UHGV virus genome: UHGV-1427736
Origin: a virus
DNA: 33,069 bases
Strand: one strand, 5' to 3'
A program made the position numbers and the translations under genes. The notes beneath the pieces were generated by a model that did no database searches, was not told the DNA's origin, and saw nothing but the letters and a program-made list of their open reading frames with translations. Shown here one piece after another: positions 21,836-29,229 of the stretch (position 1 is its first letter; each line of letters starts with the position of its first letter).

Positions 21836-23608
21836 ATGACCATCACCACAGACACCACTCTTTTGCACGACCCGCGTCGTCAGGCGGCGCTGCTGTACTG
21901 GCAGGGGTTTTCCGTGCCGCAGATTGCCGCCATGTTGCAGATGAAACGCCCGACGGTGCAGAGCTGGAAACAGCGCGACGGCTGGGACAGCGTTGCCCCC
22001 ATCAGCCGTGTCGAAATGAGTCTGGAAGCGCGGCTGACCCAGCTCATTATCAAACCGCAGAAAACCGGCGGTGACTTCAAGGAAATTGACCTGCTCGGAC
22101 GCCAGATTGAACGACTGGCACGGGTAAACCGCTACAACCAGACCGGCAACGAGGCAGACCTTAATCCGAACATCGCTAACCGCAACAAAGGCGGGCGACG
22201 CAAACCGAAAAAGAATTTTTTCAGCGACGAGGCTATCGAAAAGCTGGAGCAGATTTTCTTTGAGCAGTCTTTCGAATATCAGTTGCACTGGTATCGCGCC
22301 GGGCTTGAGCACCGCATCCGCGATATCCTGAAATCCCGCCAGATTGGCGCGACGTTTTATTTTTCCCGCGAGGCGCTGCTGCGCGCCCTGAAAACCGGTC
22401 ATAACCAGATTTTTCTGTCGGCCAGTAAAACGCAGGCGTATGTGTTCCGCGAATACATCATCGCCTTTGCCCGGCTGGTTGACGTTGACCTGACCGGTGA
22501 CCCGATTGCCCTGGGCAATAACGGCGCAAAACTGATTTTTCTCGGCACCAACTCCAACACCGCACAGAGCCATAACGGCGACCTGTACGTCGACGAGATT
22601 TTCTGGATCCCGAATTTTCAGGTACTGCGTAAGGTGGCATCAGGTATGGCCTCACAGAGTCACCTGCGCTCGACCTATTTCTCCACCCCGTCCACGCTGG
22701 CGCACGACGCCTACCCGTTCTGGTCGGGGGAACTGTTTAACCGGGGACGCGCCAGCGCCGCTGAACGCGTGGAAATCGACGTCAGTCATAACGCCCTTGC
22801 CGGTGGGCTTCTCTGTGCGGACGGCCAGTGGCGGCAGATTGTCACCATTGAGGACGCGCTGAAAGGCGGCTGCACGCTGTTCGACATTGAGCAGCTCAAA
22901 CGTGAAAACAGCGCCGACGATTTTAAAAACCTGTTCATGTGTGAATTTGTTGACGACAAGGCGTCGGTGTTCCCGTTCGAGGAGCTGCAACGCTGCATGG
23001 TCGACACGCTGGAAGAATGGGAAGACTATGCGCCGTTTGCCGCCAATCCGTTCGGCTCCCGCCCGGTATGGATTGGTTACGACCCGTCACACCGTGGCGA
23101 CAGCGCCGGATGCGTGGTACTGGCACCGCCGGTGGTGGCCGGTGGCAAATTCAGAATACTTGAGCGTCACCAGTGGAAAGGCATGGACTTTGCCACTCAG
23201 GCTGAATCCATCCGCAAACTCACTGAAAAATACAACGTCGAATACATCGGAATTGATGCCACCGGCCTCGGTGTCGGCGTGTTCCAGCTCGTGCGCTCGT
23301 TCTATCCCGCCGCGCGCGATATCCGCTACACACCGGAAATGAAAACCGCAATGGTGCTCAAGGCAAAAGACGTTATCCGTCGTGGCTGTCTGGAATATGA
23401 CGTCAGCGCCACCGACATCACCAGCTCGTTTATGGCTATCCGCAAGACCATGACCAGCAGCGGACGCAGCGCCACCTATGAGGCCAGCCGCAGCGAGGAA
23501 GCCAGCCACGCCGACCTCGCCTGGGCGACCATGCACGCCCTGTTAAATGAGCCACTCACCGCCGGTATCAGCACCTCGCTGACATCCACCATTCTGGAGT
23601 TTTACTGA
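21836..23608 (+). CDS. P: Terminase large (ATPase) subunit gpP
   Basis: Start placed at MTITTDTTLLHDPRRQAALLYWQGFS (ATG at 21836, 590 aa). P2 P position. Confidence 0.9.
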   Translation: MTITTDTTLLHDPRRQAALLYWQGFSVPQIAAMLQMKRPTVQSWKQRDGWDSVAPISRVEMSLEARLTQLIIKPQKTGGDFKEIDLLGRQIERLARVNRYNQTGNEADLNPNIANRNKGGRRKPKKNFFSDEAIEKLEQIFFEQSFEYQLHWYRAGLEHRIRDILKSRQIGATFYFSREALLRALKTGHNQIFLSASKTQAYVFREYIIAFARLVDVDLTGDPIALGNNGAKLIFLGTNSNTAQSHNGDLYVDEIFWIPNFQVLRKVASGMASQSHLRSTYFSTPSTLAHDAYPFWSGELFNRGRASAAERVEIDVSHNALAGGLLCADGQWRQIVTIEDALKGGCTLFDIEQLKRENSADDFKNLFMCEFVDDKASVFPFEELQRCMVDTLEEWEDYAPFAANPFGSRPVWIGYDPSHRGDSAGCVVLAPPVVAGGKFRILERHQWKGMDFATQAESIRKLTEKYNVEYIGIDATGLGVGVFQLVRSFYPAARDIRYTPEMKTAMVLKAKDVIRRGCLEYDVSATDITSSFMAIRKTMTSSGRSATYEASRSEEASHADLAWATMHALLNEPLTAGISTSLTSTILEFY

Positions 23609-24642
23609 TGAGCAAGAAAAAAGGGAAAACACCGCAACCTGCGGCAAAAAAAATGACCGCCAGCGCCCCGAAAATGGAGGCATTCACCTTTGGTGAGCCG
23701 GTGCCGGTACTCGACCGCCGTGACATTCTGGATTACGTCGAGTGCATCAGTAACGGCAGATGGTATGAGCCACCGGTCAGCTTTACCGGTCTGGCAAAAA
23801 GCCTGCGTGCTGCCGTACATCACAGCTCACCGATTTACGTCAAACGTAATATTCTGGCTTCAACGTTTATTCCGCACCCGTGGCTTTCCCAGCAGGATTT
23901 CAGCCGCTTTGTGCTGGATTTTCTGGTGTTCGGTAATGCGTTTCTGGAAAAGCGTTACAGCACCACCGGTAAGGTCATCAGACTGGAAACCTCACCGGCA
24001 AAATATACCCGCCGTGGTGTGGAAGAGGATGTTTACTGGTGGGTGCCGTCCTTCAACGAGCCGACAGCCTTCGCGCCCGGCTCCGTGTTTCACCTGCTGG
24101 AGCCCGATATTAATCAGGAGCTGTACGGCCTGCCGGAATATCTGAGCGCCCTTAACTCTGCCTGGCTGAATGAGTCGGCCACGCTGTTCCGCCGCAAGTA
24201 TTACGAAAACGGCGCACATGCCGGATACATCATGTACGTCACTGATGCCGTGCAGGATCGCAACGATATCGAAATGCTTCGCGAAAACATGGTGAAGTCG
24301 AAAGGCCGCAACAACTTTAAAAACCTGTTTCTCTATGCCCCGCAGGGGAAAGCCGACGGCATTAAAATTATCCCGCTCAGTGAAGTGGCAACGAAGGACG
24401 ATTTTTTTAATATCAAAAAAGCCAGCGCCGCTGACCTGCTGGACGCGCACCGCATCCCCTTTCAGTTGATGGGCGGCAAGCCGGAGAACGTCGGGTCGCT
24501 GGGCGATATTGAGAAAGTGGCAAAGGTCTTTGTCCGCAATGAGCTTATCCCGTTACAGGACAGGATCCGCGAGATAAACGGCTGGCTCGGTCAGGAGGTC
24601 ATCCGCTTTAAAAACTACTCACTGGACACTGACAACGGCTGA
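23608..24642 (+). CDS. Q: Portal protein gpQ
   Basis: 344 aa ORF; ATGA overlap with the P stop, as in P2. Confidence 0.9.
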   Translation: MSKKKGKTPQPAAKKMTASAPKMEAFTFGEPVPVLDRRDILDYVECISNGRWYEPPVSFTGLAKSLRAAVHHSSPIYVKRNILASTFIPHPWLSQQDFSRFVLDFLVFGNAFLEKRYSTTGKVIRLETSPAKYTRRGVEEDVYWWVPSFNEPTAFAPGSVFHLLEPDINQELYGLPEYLSALNSAWLNESATLFRRKYYENGAHAGYIMYVTDAVQDRNDIEMLRENMVKSKGRNNFKNLFLYAPQGKADGIKIIPLSEVATKDDFFNIKKASAADLLDAHRIPFQLMGGKPENVGSLGDIEKVAKVFVRNELIPLQDRIREINGWLGQEVIRFKNYSLDTDNG

Positions 24643-24647
24643 ACATC

Positions 24648-24669
24648 GCCGCCTGCGGGCGGCTTTTTT
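24648..24669 (+). terminator. Rho-independent terminator after Q
   Basis: GCCGCC-tgcg-GGCGGC hairpin followed by TTTTTT, starting 6 nt after the Q stop. Confidence 0.65.
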
Positions 24670-24811
24670 ACACCCCGTCATCACGCCCTCACACGTTCGC
24701 CACTGTACAAAACACCCCGCAGACACACCAACGCCCCGGCAGGCCGACTAAACGCCATCACGACGCGCTCAGACGCTGAAAAAATAAAATCAGCACCACC
24801 GCCAGCGCGCA

Positions 24812-24830
24812 GTGCTTTCCCCGCCTCGCC
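24812..24830. other. P2-type cos site (19-nt cohesive end sequence)
   Basis: gtgctttccccgcctcgcc at 24812-24830 is the reverse complement of the P2 cohesive-end sequence GGCGAGGCGGGGAAAGCAC as I recall it, and sits in the expected position next to Q. Confidence 0.6.
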
Positions 24831-24958
24831 CGCCCGCTTCATGGGTCGGTTTTAATGCAGGTGCACGAACACACTGGAGACGCACCAGTACTGGCGGTGG
24901 TCACGTAGATCCGCCCCTTAAAAGCCATGCAGAATAATGCAACTATTGCGGGCGTCGG

Positions 24959-25378
24959 CTAATCATCTTCTAAAGGTGGAATTTTGATGCCACTAATTAG
25001 CAGTACTTTCCGGTATGCCTCAAAAATAATGTTGTGTGTTTTTTGTAAATCATCGAGCATTTTTTGCCGTCCTGCTGGGGTATCTTTGGCAAAATTATGA
25101 GCGCGAAAAAAATCATGTGCCAAGTAGTTTCTGGCTTTAAGAGCATCTGACACATACTCCAGTGTATCAGCATCCTCCACCATCCTAGACTTCAGTGCGT
25201 AATTCAATTTACCCAGCGTGTATTTATCCATTTCTAAAAACTGTTTTTTCAGCGACTGTATATCTTTCCCCTGACTCATATCATACTCAGTGATAACATT
25301 TATCAACTCAGTCTCCAGTAATTGAGCTGCTTCCGAAGCATAACCAAATTTCCAATAAACCGTATCAAGCGTCACCAT
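24959..25378 (-). CDS. Small hypothetical protein with an Rx4H (HEPN-like) motif; partner of the adjacent HNH nuclease
   Basis: 139 aa, AT-rich, with no P2 counterpart I recognise. Contains ARNYLAHDFF (R-x4-H). GGGGAA RBS 8 nt ahead of the ATG; 91 bp downstream of the HNH gene on the same strand. Confidence 0.5.
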   Translation of the reverse strand: MVTLDTVYWKFGYASEAAQLLETELINVITEYDMSQGKDIQSLKKQFLEMDKYTLGKLNYALKSRMVEDADTLEYVSDALKARNYLAHDFFRAHNFAKDTPAGRQKMLDDLQKTHNIIFEAYRKVLLISGIKIPPLEDD

Positions 25379-25469
25379 ATAATCTATTCCCCATATAACA
25401 AATCACACCCCAAATTAAATCATAATACATAATTAAATCTAACGCCTCGCTGCACCAGAAGAAGTCATG

Positions 25470-26801
25470 TTAACGCTTATCATGGAACTTTTTCCATTTT
25501 GTCATCAACTTTCCAGCATCAAGTTCTACATGATGCGGTTGTAGAGTTTTACCCTCAAACATAGTTTTGTGGATACAATTAATAGAAAAATGAACCGTTA
25601 AGTCCTCTGGATTAATCCCCATTAATCCTTTATCAAACATTCGGTGTAAACTTACTTCAAGTAACAGGCCATTAGATGTGTTATTATTTGCTGATTCTGT
25701 TATTGCTTCAATATGTGCGGCTTCCAATATCCCCTCTGGCAATGGATAGCCAGTAATAGCACATCTGCCATTGAAGTTATCCCAAACACGGCGTTTGAAA
25801 TCAGCTTGATCTCCAGCATGACGGACTTTGTGAGTAACCTCGACTGTTCGTCCTGTAGCACAGGTATCGTTTGCGGCCTTGAAAGGATTAGTTAGACTTT
25901 CATTAATGGCTATATCCGTTCCATCCATGATAAGAGATATTTCATTATTGGGTTCGGATGATGTTAATGGACTTATGTACTGATTGCTTAAAAAAGTCAT
26001 ACTAGATTCTTCATCAGTCGCGAGTTTCCACGCTTCTGATTGTGTCATTGTTAGCAATGCCGTTTGATAAACTTGCTTATTAAAATAACGTTTATCTTTC
26101 TTGTCACTCCCCATATTAATAGTACTAGATTTAATCGGAAGTGTTTTATCACCAATTAGTAGATCACGTATTTCTACAGTCTCTTCTAAGGTATCAATAG
26201 GAGCTACTATAGGGTTAGTCAACGGGTTATCTACATGATCTACGTGGTTGTGTCGTAAATGCCACTCTATAGCACTATCTTTTATATGTATCTCGCAGAC
26301 AGGGCATACAATAAGCCCCATAGATGTTACAGGTAGCTTTTTGCCACCGATTAAGCGTAATGTATTTGCATTCTGGTTATGTACTTTCTTTTGGTTCTGT
26401 GTCAGTACACTACGCTTAGCCTCTAAACGGGTCGGAATCTTAGCAAGATTAAGCGATTTACGGCTCTCTTGTCTCTCAAGATCATAGATCCGAATCCCTG
26501 CTCCAGTTTTGATTTTTGTCCACATAGAGATAGAACTAAGGAATTTATGTCCATGTACTTTTTCATAATCAGCATAAGCTTGCAAAGTAGCAGTGGAACT
26601 ATCTAATCCTTTTTTACGGAGTGCTGTATATTGCTGAAAAAGATTAATAGCATGAGCTGTAATAGAGCGCCTATTCTCTATAATTTGCGTTTTTTTTGCT
26701 GCTTGTTCTGCTTGCAATGCTTTTTGTTCAGGGGTAAGCGACTTCTTTTTGGCTTTCTTGGTTCTTTTCTTACTCAAAGTTTTCTTACTGTTATTGTTCA
26801 T
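25470..26801 (-). CDS. Zinc-finger / HNH (His-Me finger) nuclease with a basic N-terminal tail
   Basis: 443 aa. Lys-rich N-terminus (MNNNSKKTLSKKRTKKAKKKS); C2H2-like CPVCEIHIKDSAIEWHLRHNH; C-terminal HNH motif GRCAITGYPLPEGILEAAHIEAI...NGLLLEVSLHRMFDKGL. AT-rich gene between cos and A. Confidence 0.65.
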   Translation of the reverse strand: MNNNSKKTLSKKRTKKAKKKSLTPEQKALQAEQAAKKTQIIENRRSITAHAINLFQQYTALRKKGLDSSTATLQAYADYEKVHGHKFLSSISMWTKIKTGAGIRIYDLERQESRKSLNLAKIPTRLEAKRSVLTQNQKKVHNQNANTLRLIGGKKLPVTSMGLIVCPVCEIHIKDSAIEWHLRHNHVDHVDNPLTNPIVAPIDTLEETVEIRDLLIGDKTLPIKSSTINMGSDKKDKRYFNKQVYQTALLTMTQSEAWKLATDEESSMTFLSNQYISPLTSSEPNNEISLIMDGTDIAINESLTNPFKAANDTCATGRTVEVTHKVRHAGDQADFKRRVWDNFNGRCAITGYPLPEGILEAAHIEAITESANNNTSNGLLLEVSLHRMFDKGLMGINPEDLTVHFSINCIHKTMFEGKTLQPHHVELDAGKLMTKWKKFHDKR

Positions 26802-26910
26802 TTTGCAAGCCTTTAATCTAATTCATGGAAAGGGGCATTCACTTGCCCTGTATCCAGTAAACTGACATAACACGATATAAGCAAGCTCCGTAATTCTTTC
26901 ATGTTAATCA

Positions 26911-29229
26911 TCAATGGTCCATTGTGAATCCCGGCCACTCATCAGCGACCGGATACGTGAATTTTTTACCGTCGTAATTTACAGTCGCGCCACGCGCCAG
27001 CGCCTCAAGCTCCCATCGCTGCGGCCTGATACCGTTCTGAGCAAGGTCAACGCGGATACGGGTGATTTGCATTCGTTCCGACCTGTTCAGTCTGGCCGAT
27101 GGCGCTATTTCATGCGGTTTTAACGGGCTTCCGTTTCTTTGCTGACGGTTTGGTCTTCTCAGGCCGTGTTTTAATGCGCTTCTGAGCGCCCTCACGACCT
27201 CCGGGTCATTCCATTCGATAACACCGTCATCAACCAGATTAAGCACGGCTGCGGCGTGCTCAGAAGGTGTGGGAGCCGGTAACGAAGTATCACCACCGGT
27301 GAGCTTTCCACAGTTATTGACAGGACTCCGAGGCGCGGCGATGCCGCTTTTTAAAGTCAAAGGCTCAACGACCGGAACTTTCGGCACAATGCGCCAGTCC
27401 GTCGTTCTGGTGATATGAATATGACGCGCGCCGAGATGCGGCGCGTAAATGCCGACCACTCTCTCGACTTCTTCCTCATACTCGTTAACGTCATCCGACG
27501 GGCTACGGGCGACCCTGACAGTCTGACAATCGCGCGGGACATTTGCCCCACCCTGCGCGCTGATATACAACGCAAAATCACCACTGTCTGCGGCGGCGCG
27601 TGCAGCCTCGACGCGTTCGTCAAACTCATCAGCAATGCTGACGCCGCGAGGCAATTTGCGTAGTTCACGGTAAGCCCCCATTGTCGGCAGGCCAACCGTT
27701 TTAAATTGCGGAATGCGCCACGTTGACGCCCATGCGGTAACAGCCGCGGCAGTATCTTTCAGCGGCCTGCCAGTATCGTTATCGAGCTGACCATCCAGTG
27801 CATAGCCGTCGATGTTTTTTGAGATGTATTTCGCGATATATCCCGCAGCACCGCCCCGGTTAAGGTGTTTTGCCTGAAAACGGTTTCGCGCAGCGCCTCT
27901 TTCGTCACCATCCTCTTTGAGCGCATAGCGACGCATGATTTCGATAATCTGGTTACGCTGGCGTGGATTACAAAAAAGCATCATATGCCAGTGCGGCGTT
28001 CCGTCGTGGTGTGGCTCAACGACACGCAAACCGTAGACCTGTAAATCATTATCCTTGAATGCCGTCCGCATCAGGCTCCAGATACGGCAGAGATAACGCT
28101 GCGCATCCTTTGGATTAAATGCCTCATCGTTCCAGCCGTGATTAAGCTGAACGGTTTTACTTTCGCCTTTTCCGACCTGACGTGTCGGGTGATACTTTGA
28201 CGGCGCGGTCAGCGTGATAAACATCCCCACATCACCCTCTGCGGCGGCGTAACGCTCAATACCGGCAATGGTGTTCATCAGCTCCATCCGGCGAATTTCA
28301 GGATTAGAAATACTGCCCATCACCTTACTGATAAGGTCGATGCGCTCGCCGGTTTCCCTGTTTTCAAGGTCACACGATTTAAGAAATTCCAGATTTGCCT
28401 GGCGGCGTGCACGTACATCACGAATGGCATGTTTACTGGCATAAGGAGAACGGTCTTTATTCACCTCCCCGACAGCAATCAGTAACGCCTCATGCCAGCG
28501 CATACGCTGGCCTTTAAGCTGATGAGTCCACCACTCATCGTTAAACAGACGGGCAATGGCAGAATATGCCTGCCTCGTGGTTATCTGTCCTTTACGGTAT
28601 TTTTTCCAGTAGAGCGGGGAAATATTGAAAGCACGTGCAGCGCCAGCAACATGACCATACAGATGATCCTGCGCCTCATCCGTAAACAGCGATTCTTTTT
28701 CGCCATGCGCATCCACCCAGGCATCGCAGAGTTCCTCATACATCATGAAAAGCTGCGATGAGATACGGGCGGCAAACTTTTTCAGCTCCTTGTCATTCAT
28801 CCCCGGCAGACGCGCATAATGGTCACGCTCTGCCAAAAACAGCAACGACGCGTCGGTGTTCATTTCATGGCGCTGATTCACACGCTCAATGCGCGGCCAT
28901 AAACGACGCTGAAAAGTGGATGTGAGGAAATAAAACCCGTGCACCGGGCTTTTATTGCGCCGGATGTAGTCATAGCGTGAAGTAAACAGCGAGCGCAAAA
29001 AGTAAGGCAGGCGGTTAATCGTGGATAAAACACCTTGCACCTGACGCATCTCATCACGTGTAAGGGGTCTTTCGCGCCCGACAGCCTCGCGTGGCGCGTT
29101 CCATGCATAAGCACCGGCAAACGTCTTACCGGTGCCTGCGGCAAATGCTGACGGAGGGACAAAACGCCCGGAGGCTTTAACGGCCATATGAGCCAAAAGC
29201 CTCTGAACAACGCTTGCTGAGTTGCTCAA
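26911..29229 (-). CDS. A: Replication initiation protein gpA (rolling-circle nickase)
   Basis: 772 aa ORF in the P2 A position. A possible alternative start at Met15 (MAVKASGRF, ATG at 29187) would reduce the overlap with the upstream ORF. Confidence 0.85.
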   Translation of the reverse strand: MSNSASVVQRLLAHMAVKASGRFVPPSAFAAGTGKTFAGAYAWNAPREAVGRERPLTRDEMRQVQGVLSTINRLPYFLRSLFTSRYDYIRRNKSPVHGFYFLTSTFQRRLWPRIERVNQRHEMNTDASLLFLAERDHYARLPGMNDKELKKFAARISSQLFMMYEELCDAWVDAHGEKESLFTDEAQDHLYGHVAGAARAFNISPLYWKKYRKGQITTRQAYSAIARLFNDEWWTHQLKGQRMRWHEALLIAVGEVNKDRSPYASKHAIRDVRARRQANLEFLKSCDLENRETGERIDLISKVMGSISNPEIRRMELMNTIAGIERYAAAEGDVGMFITLTAPSKYHPTRQVGKGESKTVQLNHGWNDEAFNPKDAQRYLCRIWSLMRTAFKDNDLQVYGLRVVEPHHDGTPHWHMMLFCNPRQRNQIIEIMRRYALKEDGDERGAARNRFQAKHLNRGGAAGYIAKYISKNIDGYALDGQLDNDTGRPLKDTAAAVTAWASTWRIPQFKTVGLPTMGAYRELRKLPRGVSIADEFDERVEAARAAADSGDFALYISAQGGANVPRDCQTVRVARSPSDDVNEYEEEVERVVGIYAPHLGARHIHITRTTDWRIVPKVPVVEPLTLKSGIAAPRSPVNNCGKLTGGDTSLPAPTPSEHAAAVLNLVDDGVIEWNDPEVVRALRSALKHGLRRPNRQQRNGSPLKPHEIAPSARLNRSERMQITRIRVDLAQNGIRPQRWELEALARGATVNYDGKKFTYPVADEWPGFTMDH

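What the first reader, a model, noticed from the sequence alone, without database searches (positions are those of the whole stretch)
24959..25378. Small partner protein with an R-x4-H motif (possible HEPN RNase, antitoxin-like regulator, or sensor)
The 139-aa protein contains ARNYLAHDFF, which fits the Rx4-6H signature of HEPN RNases, in a protein of roughly HEPN-domain size. It sits immediately downstream of the HNH gene, likely in the same operon. A DNase plus putative RNase pair would be a dual-nuclease module. A single short motif is weak evidence on its own.
Basis: inference. Interest (0 to 1): 0.55.

Follow-up and report, generated by a model that had tools for sequence, protein, structure and literature searches.

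The report
Stand-alone HEPN-like gene in P2 prophage
The 139-aa gene is real and probably encodes a small, previously unnamed HEPN-type RNase, but it is a self-contained mobile gene carried in the defence hotspot of a P2-like prophage and is not a partner of the neighbouring HNH nuclease.

The parts
24959..25378 (-). Coding sequence of the 139-aa stand-alone HEPN-like protein (identical to WP_023281582; family phrog_12893)
   Evidence: ORF; RefSeq CDS; phrog_12893 E=3.4e-86; 37 close homologs and 1,971 cluster representatives; AF2 model pLDDT 90.4, five helices
25115..25132 (-). Codons for R83-N84-Y85-L86-A87-H88, the candidate HEPN Rx4H catalytic motif, at the C-terminal end of helix 70-93
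   Evidence: Sequence read. R kept in 71/72, N in 70/72 and H in 71/72 relatives. Helix boundaries. HEPN motif position as described in PMC3710099
25304..25336 (-). Codons for residues 15-25 (SEAAQLLETEL), the second conserved block, on helix 1. E22 is invariant and Q19 and E16 are nearly invariant. E22 is a candidate for the upstream acidic residue of HEPN active sites
   Evidence: E22 72/72, Q19 69/72, E16 65/72. The Pfam DUF4145 match of the family consensus runs colinearly from this helix to the motif. Spatial proximity to R83/H88 was not verified
25379..25455 (-). The gene's own conserved 5' region of about 77 nt (SD-like GGGGA about 9 nt before the ATG). Homology between different cargo contexts extends to this point and no further
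   Evidence: ST131-type loci match window 24960-25455 only. Alignment of upstream regions from 8 contexts. No consensus sigma-70 promoter was found in it, so promoter function is inferred, not shown
25437..25453 (-). Junction element GCAGCGAGGCGTTAGAT at the left boundary of the module. It is shared by all P2-like contexts and resembles the 3' end of an integron attC site (GGCGTTAG plus a GTTRRRY core)
   Evidence: Alignment; attC ends in L033 and L062. No complete attC site was detected in the window, so the resemblance is only a lead
25438..25459 (-). Weak terminator-like hairpin directly after the HNH stop codon, between the two genes
   Evidence: Pattern scan: 8-pair stem with only 3 G-C pairs and a T-poor tail. 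Weak evidence for transcriptional separation
24812..24830 (.). P2-type cos cohesive-end sequence (gtgctttccccgcctcgcc, the complement of GGCGAGGCGGGGAAAGCAC), about 125 bp beyond the gene's stop codon. It makes this gene the last gene of the phage's right arm
   Evidence: Sequence. The linear PSP3 genome record ends exactly before this block in the alignment. The identity of the P2 cos 19-mer rests on my own knowledge. Hotspot location next to cos per PMC9122126
25470..26801 (-). Neighbouring but independent module: a 443-aa HNH_2 nuclease with a C2H2-like zinc-finger region, probably a self-sufficient type IV-like restriction nuclease
   Evidence: PF13391 E=6.6e-11; PADLOC HNH E=2.2e-11; weak similarity to a phosphorothioate-DNA restriction endonuclease; found without the small gene in L083

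Best explanation
The gene is an autonomous, single-gene mobile module. It encodes a minimal, one-domain protein of the HEPN superfamily that belongs to a large family not yet named.

Proposed mechanism (inferred): it is expressed from its own 5' region in the lysogen and assembles into a dimer or higher oligomer, as HEPN domains do. This brings two R83-N84-x3-H88 motifs together, with E22 nearby, to form a metal-independent RNase site. The site stays inactive until a component of an infecting phage triggers it. It then cleaves tRNA or other RNA and aborts the infection. This is the logic shown experimentally for the prophage-encoded solo HEPN proteins HepS and Tha.

The gene sits in the cos-proximal defence hotspot of a P2-like prophage as separate cargo beside the HNH nuclease, not as its partner.

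Shown here: the gene, its family, motif conservation, the helical fold, its autonomy and its mobility. Inferred: HEPN homology, oligomerisation, RNase activity, the trigger and the defence role.

Approximate sub-confidences: autonomy 0.9; HEPN superfamily 0.65-0.7; RNase 0.55; anti-phage role 0.45.
For: Autonomy:
- In P2-like phages the gene is always the last gene before cos. The cargo between gpA and it differs: HNH (window; 12 E. coli genomes), PDC-M18A/B + PDC-S31/DUF2971 (18 genomes), DUF3850 + a 68-aa ORF (1 genome), and TumA/TumB/gp37 in phage PSP3.
- Homology between contexts stops 77 nt upstream of the ATG, at a shared junction.
- In L082/L089 the HNH gene is 96% identical but the small gene only 85%, within flanks that are 98-99% identical. 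That implies a recombination breakpoint between the two genes.
- Across 49 loci from many phyla no neighbour family recurs, and no MNT-like antitoxin signature was found.
- In about 6 of 49 loci the gene is a single-gene integron cassette bounded by attC-like repeats.

HEPN:
- R, N and H are conserved in 70-71 of 72 relatives, and E22 is invariant.
- The AF2 model (pLDDT 90.4) places RNYLAH at the end of the penultimate helix, before the loop to the last helix. PMC3710099 describes this position for HEPN, together with a polar N after the R.
- 20 sub-threshold hits to 7 Pfam HEPN families among 72 members.
- The two best Pfam hits of the family consensus are HEPN_Apea (E=0.0023) and DUF4145 (E=0.0059), and its best NCBIfam hit is the C-terminal HEPN region of Csm6 (E=0.0035).
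- Natural fusions to a HepT-like domain score above Pfam's cut-off, and a tandem-duplicated member and adjacent paralogs exist. These fit HEPN dimerisation.

Defence context:
- The gpA-gpQ interval is the established P2 defence hotspot, and this exact arrangement is listed there untested.
- Both cargo genes are AT-rich (35-43% GC against 52-59% for the backbone).
- Precedents: HepS and Tha.
Against: - The only formal profile-profile comparison I could run (family alignments against a DUF4145 subfamily alignment) gave probability 0.1%.
- Foldseek against the PDB and BFVD found nothing significant.
- Four sequence or profile searches of PDB sequences found no HEPN entry, neither 3jrt nor 9OIJ.
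- Every HEPN family hit is below its curated cut-off and may be driven largely by the same short motif.
- A 139-aa protein has no room for a separate sensor domain, and no antitoxin was found, so it is unclear how an active RNase would be kept harmless.
- No experiment bears on RNase activity, toxicity or phage defence.
Confidence: 0.55

Rival explanations
1. One reading: the small protein is the dedicated partner (second nuclease, antitoxin-like regulator or sensor) of the upstream HNH nuclease, and the two form a single two-gene system.
For: The genes are on the same strand, 91 bp apart, and both are AT-rich cargo. All 12 complete E. coli genomes and 4 viral contigs with this HNH allele also carry the small gene. 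Rousset et al. list 'HNH_2 + hypothetical' as one arrangement.
Against: The small gene occurs without HNH in 19 of 31 E. coli genomes, in PSP3, in other viral contigs and in all 49 diverse loci. A 78%-identical HNH gene lies next to a TIR gene with no small gene. A recombination breakpoint falls between the two genes. A terminator-like hairpin lies between them, and the small gene has its own conserved 5' region. Homologs are single-gene integron cassettes. Neighbours of homologs show no HNH enrichment.
Confidence: 0.07
2. The protein is a non-catalytic helical-bundle protein, such as a binding or inhibitor protein, an adaptor or a regulator. Its conserved R-N-x3-H and E residues serve binding or structure, and the HEPN resemblance is convergent or only motif-deep.
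Against: Near-absolute conservation of exactly the HEPN catalytic triplet (R, polar N, H) plus an invariant acidic residue, across about 2,000 clusters and many phyla. The motif sits at the canonical structural position. HEPN families are the dominant theme among weak hits in three independent libraries. Fusion to a HepT-like HEPN domain.
Confidence: 0.2
3. The protein is a HEPN-type toxin of a cryptic toxin-antitoxin or addiction module. Its antidote is not a neighbouring protein but perhaps an RNA from the conserved 5' region, or control by oligomerisation. Its role would be to stabilise the prophage or cassette, or to induce stress dormancy, and not to defend against phage.
For: Integron cassette arrays commonly carry toxin RNases, and an integron-cassette HEPN family was proposed to induce dormancy (PMC3710099). 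The 5' region of about 75 nt travels with the gene. Phage-encoded AbiF HEPN systems with RNA-based regulation are reported (title listed, paper not read).
Against: No repeat-type RNA antitoxin or Rfam family was detected around the gene. The 5' region varies between contexts, with indels. The location in the P2 defence hotspot, beside other candidate defence modules, favours a defence role.
Confidence: 0.12
4. The protein is a phage counter-defence enzyme: a minimal HEPN that degrades cyclic oligonucleotide second messengers or defence RNAs. It would protect the P2-like phage instead of the host.
For: The best NCBIfam similarity of the family consensus is to the Csm6 HEPN region. From my own knowledge, Csm6 HEPN domains can cleave cyclic oligoadenylates. 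The gene is phage-borne.
Against: Most family members lie in bacterial chromosomes and integron arrays across many phyla, not in phages. Only 2 phage records in a collection of 50,697 carry it. The hotspot is known for defence cargo, not anti-defence cargo.
Confidence: 0.05

Closest known systems
HepS ('HEPN Solo'), Gifsy-1 prophage of Salmonella Typhimurium (PDB 9OIJ/9OIK; PMC13043305)
   Same: Both are prophage-encoded, small, stand-alone proteins with no partner gene and a canonical Rx4H motif with a polar residue after the R. Both are accessory cargo of a temperate enterobacterial phage. HepS shows that a solo HEPN can be held inactive by its own oligomeric state and be triggered by a phage protein.
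   Different: [quoted passage not shown] The motif is at R100-H105 in HepS and R83-H88 here. No PDB sequence or fold search retrieved 9OIJ. I could not obtain the HepS sequence, and LT2's Gifsy-1 lacks it, so direct homology remains untested. Trigger, target and oligomeric state are unknown here.
Tha (tail-activated HEPN anti-phage system) of S. aureus prophages (PMC11087260)
   Different: Tha is 301 aa, with an N-terminal region of about 165 aa in front of the HEPN domain. The window protein is 139 aa, domain only. It comes from Gram-positive siphoviruses. No sequence similarity was detected.
Integron cassette HEPN family (PDB 3jrt) of Anantharaman et al. 2013 (PMC3710099)
   Same: A stand-alone small HEPN protein carried as an integron gene cassette with a conserved Rx4-6H. 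Homologs of the window protein are likewise single-gene cassettes in chromosomal integron arrays of Vibrio, Lysobacteraceae and Woeseiaceae.
HepT/MntA (HEPN-MNT) type VII toxin-antitoxin toxins
   Different: No MNT nucleotidyltransferase gene is adjacent in any context, and no MNT signature occurs in 368 neighbour proteins. The protein does not reach the Pfam HepT-like threshold.
P2 old and tin (the cargo at the same locus in reference phage P2)
   Same: Same genomic slot: accessory, lysogen-expressed exclusion genes between gpA and cos/gpQ.
   Different: The proteins are unrelated. Old is an ATPase-TOPRIM nuclease, and there is no similarity.

Membership tests
HEPN superfamily (Anantharaman et al. 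2013) | Conserved Rx4-6H motif with a polar residue (N, D or H) immediately after the R | tested here: met
   R83-N84-x3-H88 is kept in 70-71 of 72 diverse relatives. Definition taken from PMC3710099
HEPN superfamily (Anantharaman et al. 2013) | All-alpha four-helix up-down core, often with an insert between helices 2 and 3, and the motif at the end of helix 3 just before the loop to helix 4 | tested here: met
   AF2 model with pLDDT 90.4. Helices are 4-35, 40-50/55-64 (a broken second helix or an insert), 70-93 (holding the motif at 83-88), a loop, then 101-128. Definition.
HEPN superfamily (Anantharaman et al. 2013) | A second conserved acidic residue upstream, positioned near the motif | tested here: inconclusive
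   E22 is invariant (72/72), and E16 and E24 are conserved. They lie on helix 1 and not in an Ex3[KR] context, and their spatial proximity could not be checked
HEPN superfamily (Anantharaman et al. 2013) | Statistically significant sequence or profile similarity to an established HEPN family | tested here: inconclusive
   Only sub-threshold hits: 7 Pfam HEPN families (best E 0.0022-0.006), the Csm6 HEPN region (E 0.0035) and a PHROG Abi protein (E 0.0076). hhalign against a DUF4145 subfamily gave probability 0.1%. HHpred against all HEPN families could not be run
HEPN superfamily (Anantharaman et al. 2013) | Structural similarity to solved HEPN domains | tested here: inconclusive
HEPN superfamily (Anantharaman et al. 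2013) | Metal-independent RNase activity that depends on the R and H, and dimerisation forming a composite site | not testable with these tools
   Only indirect hints exist: a tandem-duplicated member (P0184), adjacent paralogs, and fusions to a HepT-like domain
HepS family (HEPN Solo) | Sequence homology to STM14_3211 / PDB 9OIJ | tested here: inconclusive
   No PDB hit in 4 sequence or profile searches and 2 fold searches. I could not confirm that 9OIJ is in the copies searched, and I could not obtain the HepS sequence
Integron cassette HEPN (3jrt) | Sequence homology to 3jrt | tested here: not met
   No match at E<=10 with two family profiles, the consensus or the Vibrio cassette homolog
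HepT/MntA type VII TA | Adjacent MNT nucleotidyltransferase antitoxin gene | tested here: not met
   No recurrent neighbour and no MNT signature in 49 loci. None in the P2 contexts either
   The small gene occurs without HNH in most contexts, and HNH occurs without the small gene in L083
P2 cos-proximal defence hotspot cargo (Rousset et al. 2022) | Located between gpA and gpQ/cos of a P2-like prophage, variable between otherwise similar phages | tested here: met
   gpA at 26911-29229 and portal at 23608-24642. cos at 24812-24830. Only 31 of 5,426 E. coli genomes carry the gene, whereas 2,156 match the flanks. The arrangement is listed in Table S5A of PMC9122126
Integron gene cassette | A single ORF bounded by attC recombination sites (RYYYAAC...GTTRRRY imperfect palindromes) in a same-strand array | tested here: met
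   Met for homologs in L033, L065 and L062 (repeat families flank the gene on both sides), with attC-like folds also in L037, L041 and L073 (26 sites against 3 in shuffles). Not met for the window copy itself, where only a junction resembling an attC 3' end is present

The most novel reading that the evidence does not exclude
The gene founds a new, widespread family (about 2,000 clusters at 50% identity, across many phyla) of one-domain, partner-less immune proteins. In this reading a 139-150-aa HEPN-like module senses phage infection and also cleaves RNA, with its own oligomeric state as the only control. The family would spread as a plug-in unit between chromosomal integron cassette arrays and the cos-proximal hotspot of P2-like phages, and the attC-like junction upstream of the window copy would be a trace of that transfer.
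Probability: 0.3. Interest if true: 0.55.

Novelty: new member of a known kind. Interest (0 to 1): 0.4.

Why it matters
If the reading holds, a large and phylogenetically broad protein family would gain a testable function: a solo HEPN RNase. At present it has no Pfam or NCBIfam model and is annotated everywhere as hypothetical. Together with HepS, Tha and the 3jrt cassette family, it would support the view that minimal stand-alone HEPN proteins are a common type of bacterial and prophage immunity that annotation misses.

It would also link two reservoirs of defence genes, sedentary integron cassette arrays and the P2 hotspot.

For this scan, the practical point is that adjacency inside a phage hotspot does not imply a functional pair. 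Here at least two independent modules are stacked, and in ST131-type strains three or four.

Tried and rejected
1. Curated libraries on the protein itself: Pfam and NCBIfam gave nothing. PADLOC gave only a weak PD-Lambda-3_B hit (E=0.002), which I could not follow up because PD-lambda-3 is not described in the main text of PMC9519451.

2. PDB by sequence or profile (four searches): only spurious helical hits.

3. Foldseek against the PDB and BFVD: no hit at E<=0.001. The AFDB libraries were not available.

4. hhalign of both family alignments against a DUF4145 subfamily alignment built for the purpose: negative, even with permissive settings. Caveat: that subfamily is narrow and uses an R-x2-G-N-x-A-x-H spacing.

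5. A dedicated partner:
- No recurrent neighbour in 49 loci.
- The 68-aa gp37-like ORF often found upstream in P2-likes looked like a candidate antitoxin. It occurs in 486 E. coli genomes against 31 for the small gene and is absent from the HNH loci, so I rejected it.
- No MNT signatures.

6. Known RNA families around the gene: none.

7. A consensus promoter in the 91-bp gap: none found by the pattern scan.

8. Obtaining the HepS sequence for a direct comparison: LT2's Gifsy-1 record has no ORF with R100...H105, and no supplementary text is held for the paper.

9. My first attC detector (ungapped complementarity) found nothing and was too strict. I replaced it with a folding-based one.

10. 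The search for related loci with the broad alignment failed for lack of a conserved stretch, so I used the narrower alignment.

Full report
**1. The observation**

The window is a P2-like (Peduovirus-type) prophage of E. coli, 100% identical over the queried region (window 24640-26920) to strain UPEC85. An ORF of 139 aa runs from 25378 to 24959 on the minus strand and contains ...LKARNYLAHDFFRAH.... RNYLAH is residues 83-88, encoded at 25115-25132.

Upstream on the same strand, after a 91-bp gap, lies a 443-aa protein with an HNH_2 domain (PF13391, E=6.6e-11). The coordinates and the description are therefore correct.

The motif in a single sequence means little. In 1,210 random 139-aa stretches of unrelated proteins, Rx4-6H occurs in 52%, Rx4H in 27% and RNx3H in 3%.

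**2. The family**

The protein has no Pfam or NCBIfam match and belongs to PHROG 12893, of unknown function. There are two groups of homologs:
- Enterobacterial homologs at 63-99% identity.
- A broad set at about 40% identity and about 153 aa, from metagenomes.

An exhaustive profile search found 1,971 cluster representatives at E<=0.001 and 641 at E<=1e-10. Genome hits span Acidobacteriota, Proteobacteria, Gemmatimonadota, Planctomycetota, Verrucomicrobiota, Cloacimonadota, Omnitrophota and Thermotogota. Every source annotates them as hypothetical.

In a 72-sequence alignment with 25% mean column identity:
- G12, E22, G56 and G103 are invariant.
- R83 is kept in 71/72, N84 in 70/72 and H88 in 71/72.
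- Q19, T54, H94 and M107 are kept in more than 90%.

It is this conservation, not the motif's presence in one sequence, that exceeds chance.

**3. Is it HEPN?**

Fold and motif position. An AlphaFold2 model built from the alignment is confident (pLDDT 90.4, pTM 0.82) and all-helical. Its helices are 4-35, 40-50, 55-64, 70-93 and 101-128. RNYLAH lies at the C-terminal end of the penultimate helix, followed by a loop and the last helix.

The reference analysis of the superfamily (PMC3710099) defines HEPN by these features:
- A four-helix up-down bundle, often with an insert between helices 2 and 3.
- A polar residue, mostly N, D or H, after the R.
- A second, upstream acidic residue.

The first three fit. 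For the fourth there is an invariant E22, but I could not verify its position in space.

Sequence-based evidence is consistent but entirely below threshold:
- Scanning the 72 members individually, the most enriched theme among weak Pfam hits is the HEPN clan: Apea 6, RiboL-PSP 4, DUF4145 4, Cthe_2314 2, LA2681 2, Swt1 1 and MAE_28990 1.
- The two best Pfam hits of the family consensus are HEPN_Apea (E=0.0023) and DUF4145 (E=0.0059).
- The DUF4145 match of the close-homolog consensus runs colinearly from the conserved helix 1 through the motif.
- In NCBIfam the best hit of the consensus is the C-terminal HEPN region of Csm6 (E=0.0035).
- One member hits a PHROG annotated as an abortive-infection protein.

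Fusions and duplications:
- Two family members of 279 aa carry a C-terminal HepT-like domain above Pfam's cut-off. By eye that domain has lost its own R and H.
- A 331-aa member is a tandem duplication that keeps both motif sets.
- Three loci have adjacent paralogs.

These fit the dimeric mode of HEPN domains.

Evidence against:
- A profile-profile comparison with a DUF4145 subfamily alignment built for the purpose was negative (probability 0.1%).
- Foldseek found nothing in the PDB or BFVD.
- Four PDB sequence searches found no HEPN entry.

I rate HEPN-superfamily membership at about 0.65-0.7. The family is clearly distinct from every HEPN family that has a model or a solved structure.

**4. 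Is it the HNH gene's partner?**

No.

(a) Among 5,426 complete E. coli genomes, 31 carry the small gene. Twelve have it with the HNH gene. Eighteen (ST131-type) have two hypothetical genes and a DUF2971 gene instead. One has DUF3850/ASCH plus a 68-aa ORF. In the sequenced P2-like Salmonella phage PSP3 it is gp38, preceded by TumA, TumB and gp37.

(b) In every P2-like context, including ten viral contigs, it is the last gene before cos and the portal gene, whatever lies upstream.

(c) The other ST131 cargo genes are themselves separate PADLOC candidate systems, PDC-M18A/B and PDC-S31. The hotspot therefore stacks independent modules.

(d) Homology between contexts ends 77 nt upstream of the ATG, at a shared element GCAGCGAGGCGTTAGA[T/C]. 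A weak terminator-like hairpin follows the HNH stop codon.

(e) In one contig the HNH gene is 96% identical and the small gene only 85%, within flanks that are 98-99% identical. This indicates recombination between the two genes.

(f) A 78%-identical HNH gene sits in a non-P2 contig, convergent with a TIR-effector gene, and has no small gene nearby.

(g) In 49 diverse genomic loci no neighbour family recurs. The neighbours are mostly housekeeping genes, with occasional defence genes and other HEPN-clan genes. There is no HNH enrichment and no MNT-type signature.

(h) The frequently adjacent gp37-like ORF is present in 486 E. coli genomes, so it is a general P2 accessory gene and not a partner.

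**5. Mobility**

In Vibrio olivae (L062), a Lysobacteraceae MAG (L033) and a Woeseiaceae MAG (L065), the gene lies in arrays of short same-strand ORFs. These are separated by repeated elements of 60-120 bp with RYYYAAC...GTTRRRY ends, for example CCTAACAATTCG...CAGGCGTTAGGC. Copies of the repeat lie immediately before and after the gene.

A folding-based detector found 26 such sites in 49 loci, against 3 in shuffled controls. They flank the gene in L033, L065, L037, L041 and L073. In about 6 of 49 loci the gene is thus a single-gene integron cassette, which by definition is an autonomous mobile unit.

The window has no complete attC site. Its upstream junction (GGCGTTAGAT) resembles an attC 3' end, and I regard that as a lead only.

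**6. Context and likely function**

The interval between gpA (26911-29229) and cos/gpQ (cos at 24812-24830, portal at 23608-24642) is the documented defence hotspot of P2-like phages, where P2 itself carries old and tin (PMC9122126; PMC9519451).

Rousset et al. list "HNH_2 + hypothetical" (WP_023304084 + WP_023281582) in their raw table of arrangements, untested. None of the five protein accessions searched, including the window's small protein and HNH protein, is mentioned in any searchable paper.

Both cargo genes are AT-rich, at 35-43% GC against 52-59% for the backbone.

Two experimentally characterised precedents show how a prophage-encoded single HEPN protein can work without a partner:
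- HepS of Gifsy-1 is constitutively made and forms an autoinhibited tetramer. The tail-tip protein J opens it, and it then cleaves tRNA anticodon loops (PMC13043305).
- Tha of S. aureus phages carries RNSIMH, is activated by minor tail proteins, and is a non-specific RNase (PMC11087260).

By analogy I propose that the window protein oligomerises through a HEPN-type interface, forms a composite RNxxxH site, is silent until a phage component triggers it, and then cleaves RNA to abort infection. Everything in that proposal beyond motif, fold, autonomy and location is inference.

Rivals, with confidences:
- Non-catalytic helical protein: 0.2.
- Cryptic toxin or addiction cassette: 0.12.
- Counter-defence nuclease: 0.05.

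**7. Novelty and verdict**

Stand-alone HEPN proteins in prophages (HepS, Tha) and in integron cassettes (3jrt) are known kinds. This protein appears to be a new, large and unannotated family of that kind, so I classify it as a new member of a known kind.

A specialist would not find it very surprising. It is nonetheless a concrete, cheap-to-test candidate for a single-gene defence family, with an unusual double lifestyle as an integron cassette and as P2 hotspot cargo. Interest is 0.4.

The HEPN idea is partly supported. The dual-nuclease operon idea is not supported.

Noticed in passing
L033:5917-6603; L065:5883-6589; L062:4596-5266 (also L037, L041, L073): Homologs of the small protein are single-gene integron cassettes. 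attC/VCR-like repeats (RYYYAAC...GTTRRRY) lie directly before and after the ORF, in arrays of 7-13 repeats per 12-kb locus.
   Followed up: partly
window 25437-25453 (-): The conserved left junction of the small-gene module, GCAGCGAGGCGTTAGAT, is shared by all P2-like contexts and resembles the 3' end of an attC site (GGCGTTAG plus a GTTRRRY core). This hints at an integron-cassette origin. No complete attC site is present in the window.
   Followed up: partly
L001, between 6749 and 7150 (-); L090:5702-5863 (+): ST131-type E. coli loci contain an unannotated ORF homologous (52-56%) to PSP3 gp37 and WP_000554767, a roughly 68-aa protein. It lies in the 402-bp 'gap' upstream of the small gene. 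The gp37-like gene is in 486 of 5,426 E. coli genomes, mostly next to DUF3850/ASCH, and its function is unknown.
   Followed up: partly
L001:7151-9650 (-): The ST131-type P2 hotspot stacks further candidate defence modules: PDC-M18A (380 aa, E=9e-41), PDC-M18B (158 aa, E=3e-19) and PDC-S31/DUF2971 (243 aa, E=2e-47).
   Followed up: partly
L083:2264-4934: A 78%-identical homolog of the HNH protein lies convergent with a 335-aa TIR-domain protein (CAP12/Pycsar-type TIR, E=1.3e-21; PADLOC PDC-S35) in a non-P2 viral contig. This may be a different defence pairing, or simply a defence island.
   Followed up: no
window 24925-24958 (just after the stop codon, gene orientation): A TGCAT-rich element (GCAATAGTTGCATTATTCTGCATGG; TGCATTAGATGCATT...TGCATG in relatives) is conserved across all P2-like contexts, including diverged phages, and is partly duplicated in ST131-type loci. 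It could be a terminator, a protein-binding site or part of the extended cos region.
   Followed up: no
P0184 (331 aa); P0265 and P0078 (279 aa): Natural fusions exist in the family. P0184 is a tandem duplicate that keeps both RNxLAH motifs. P0265 and P0078 join the family domain to a C-terminal HepT-like domain (above Pfam's cut-off) that appears to have lost its own R and H (LGDEFREPPY in place of RNxxxHxY).
   Followed up: partly
L082/L089 (IMGVR_UViG_2703718839_000009): A mosaic locus: gpA is 98%, HNH 96% and the portal 99% identical to the window, but the small gene only 85%. This indicates allele replacement of the small gene alone.
   Followed up: no
window 25470-26801 (-), protein residues about 160-200: The HNH protein has a C2H2-like zinc-finger stretch (CPVCEIHIKDSAIEWHLRHNH; weak OrsD hit) and a lysine-rich N-terminus ahead of the HNH_2 domain. 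It shows weak similarity to phosphorothioate-DNA-dependent restriction endonucleases (E=2.9e-8, far below the cut-off), which suggests a modification-dependent type IV-like nuclease.
   Followed up: no
L003/L007:4724-7081: In an Acidobacteriota MAG the homolog sits in a tight same-strand run of small genes: a DUF4145 (HEPN clan) protein, a 123-aa ORF, the homolog, then DUF6988, with DUF5677 further on. This may be an island of small defence-type genes.
   Followed up: no
window 24681-24842 (-): A 53-aa ORF overlaps the cos site. RefSeq does not annotate it and it is probably not a gene.
   Followed up: no
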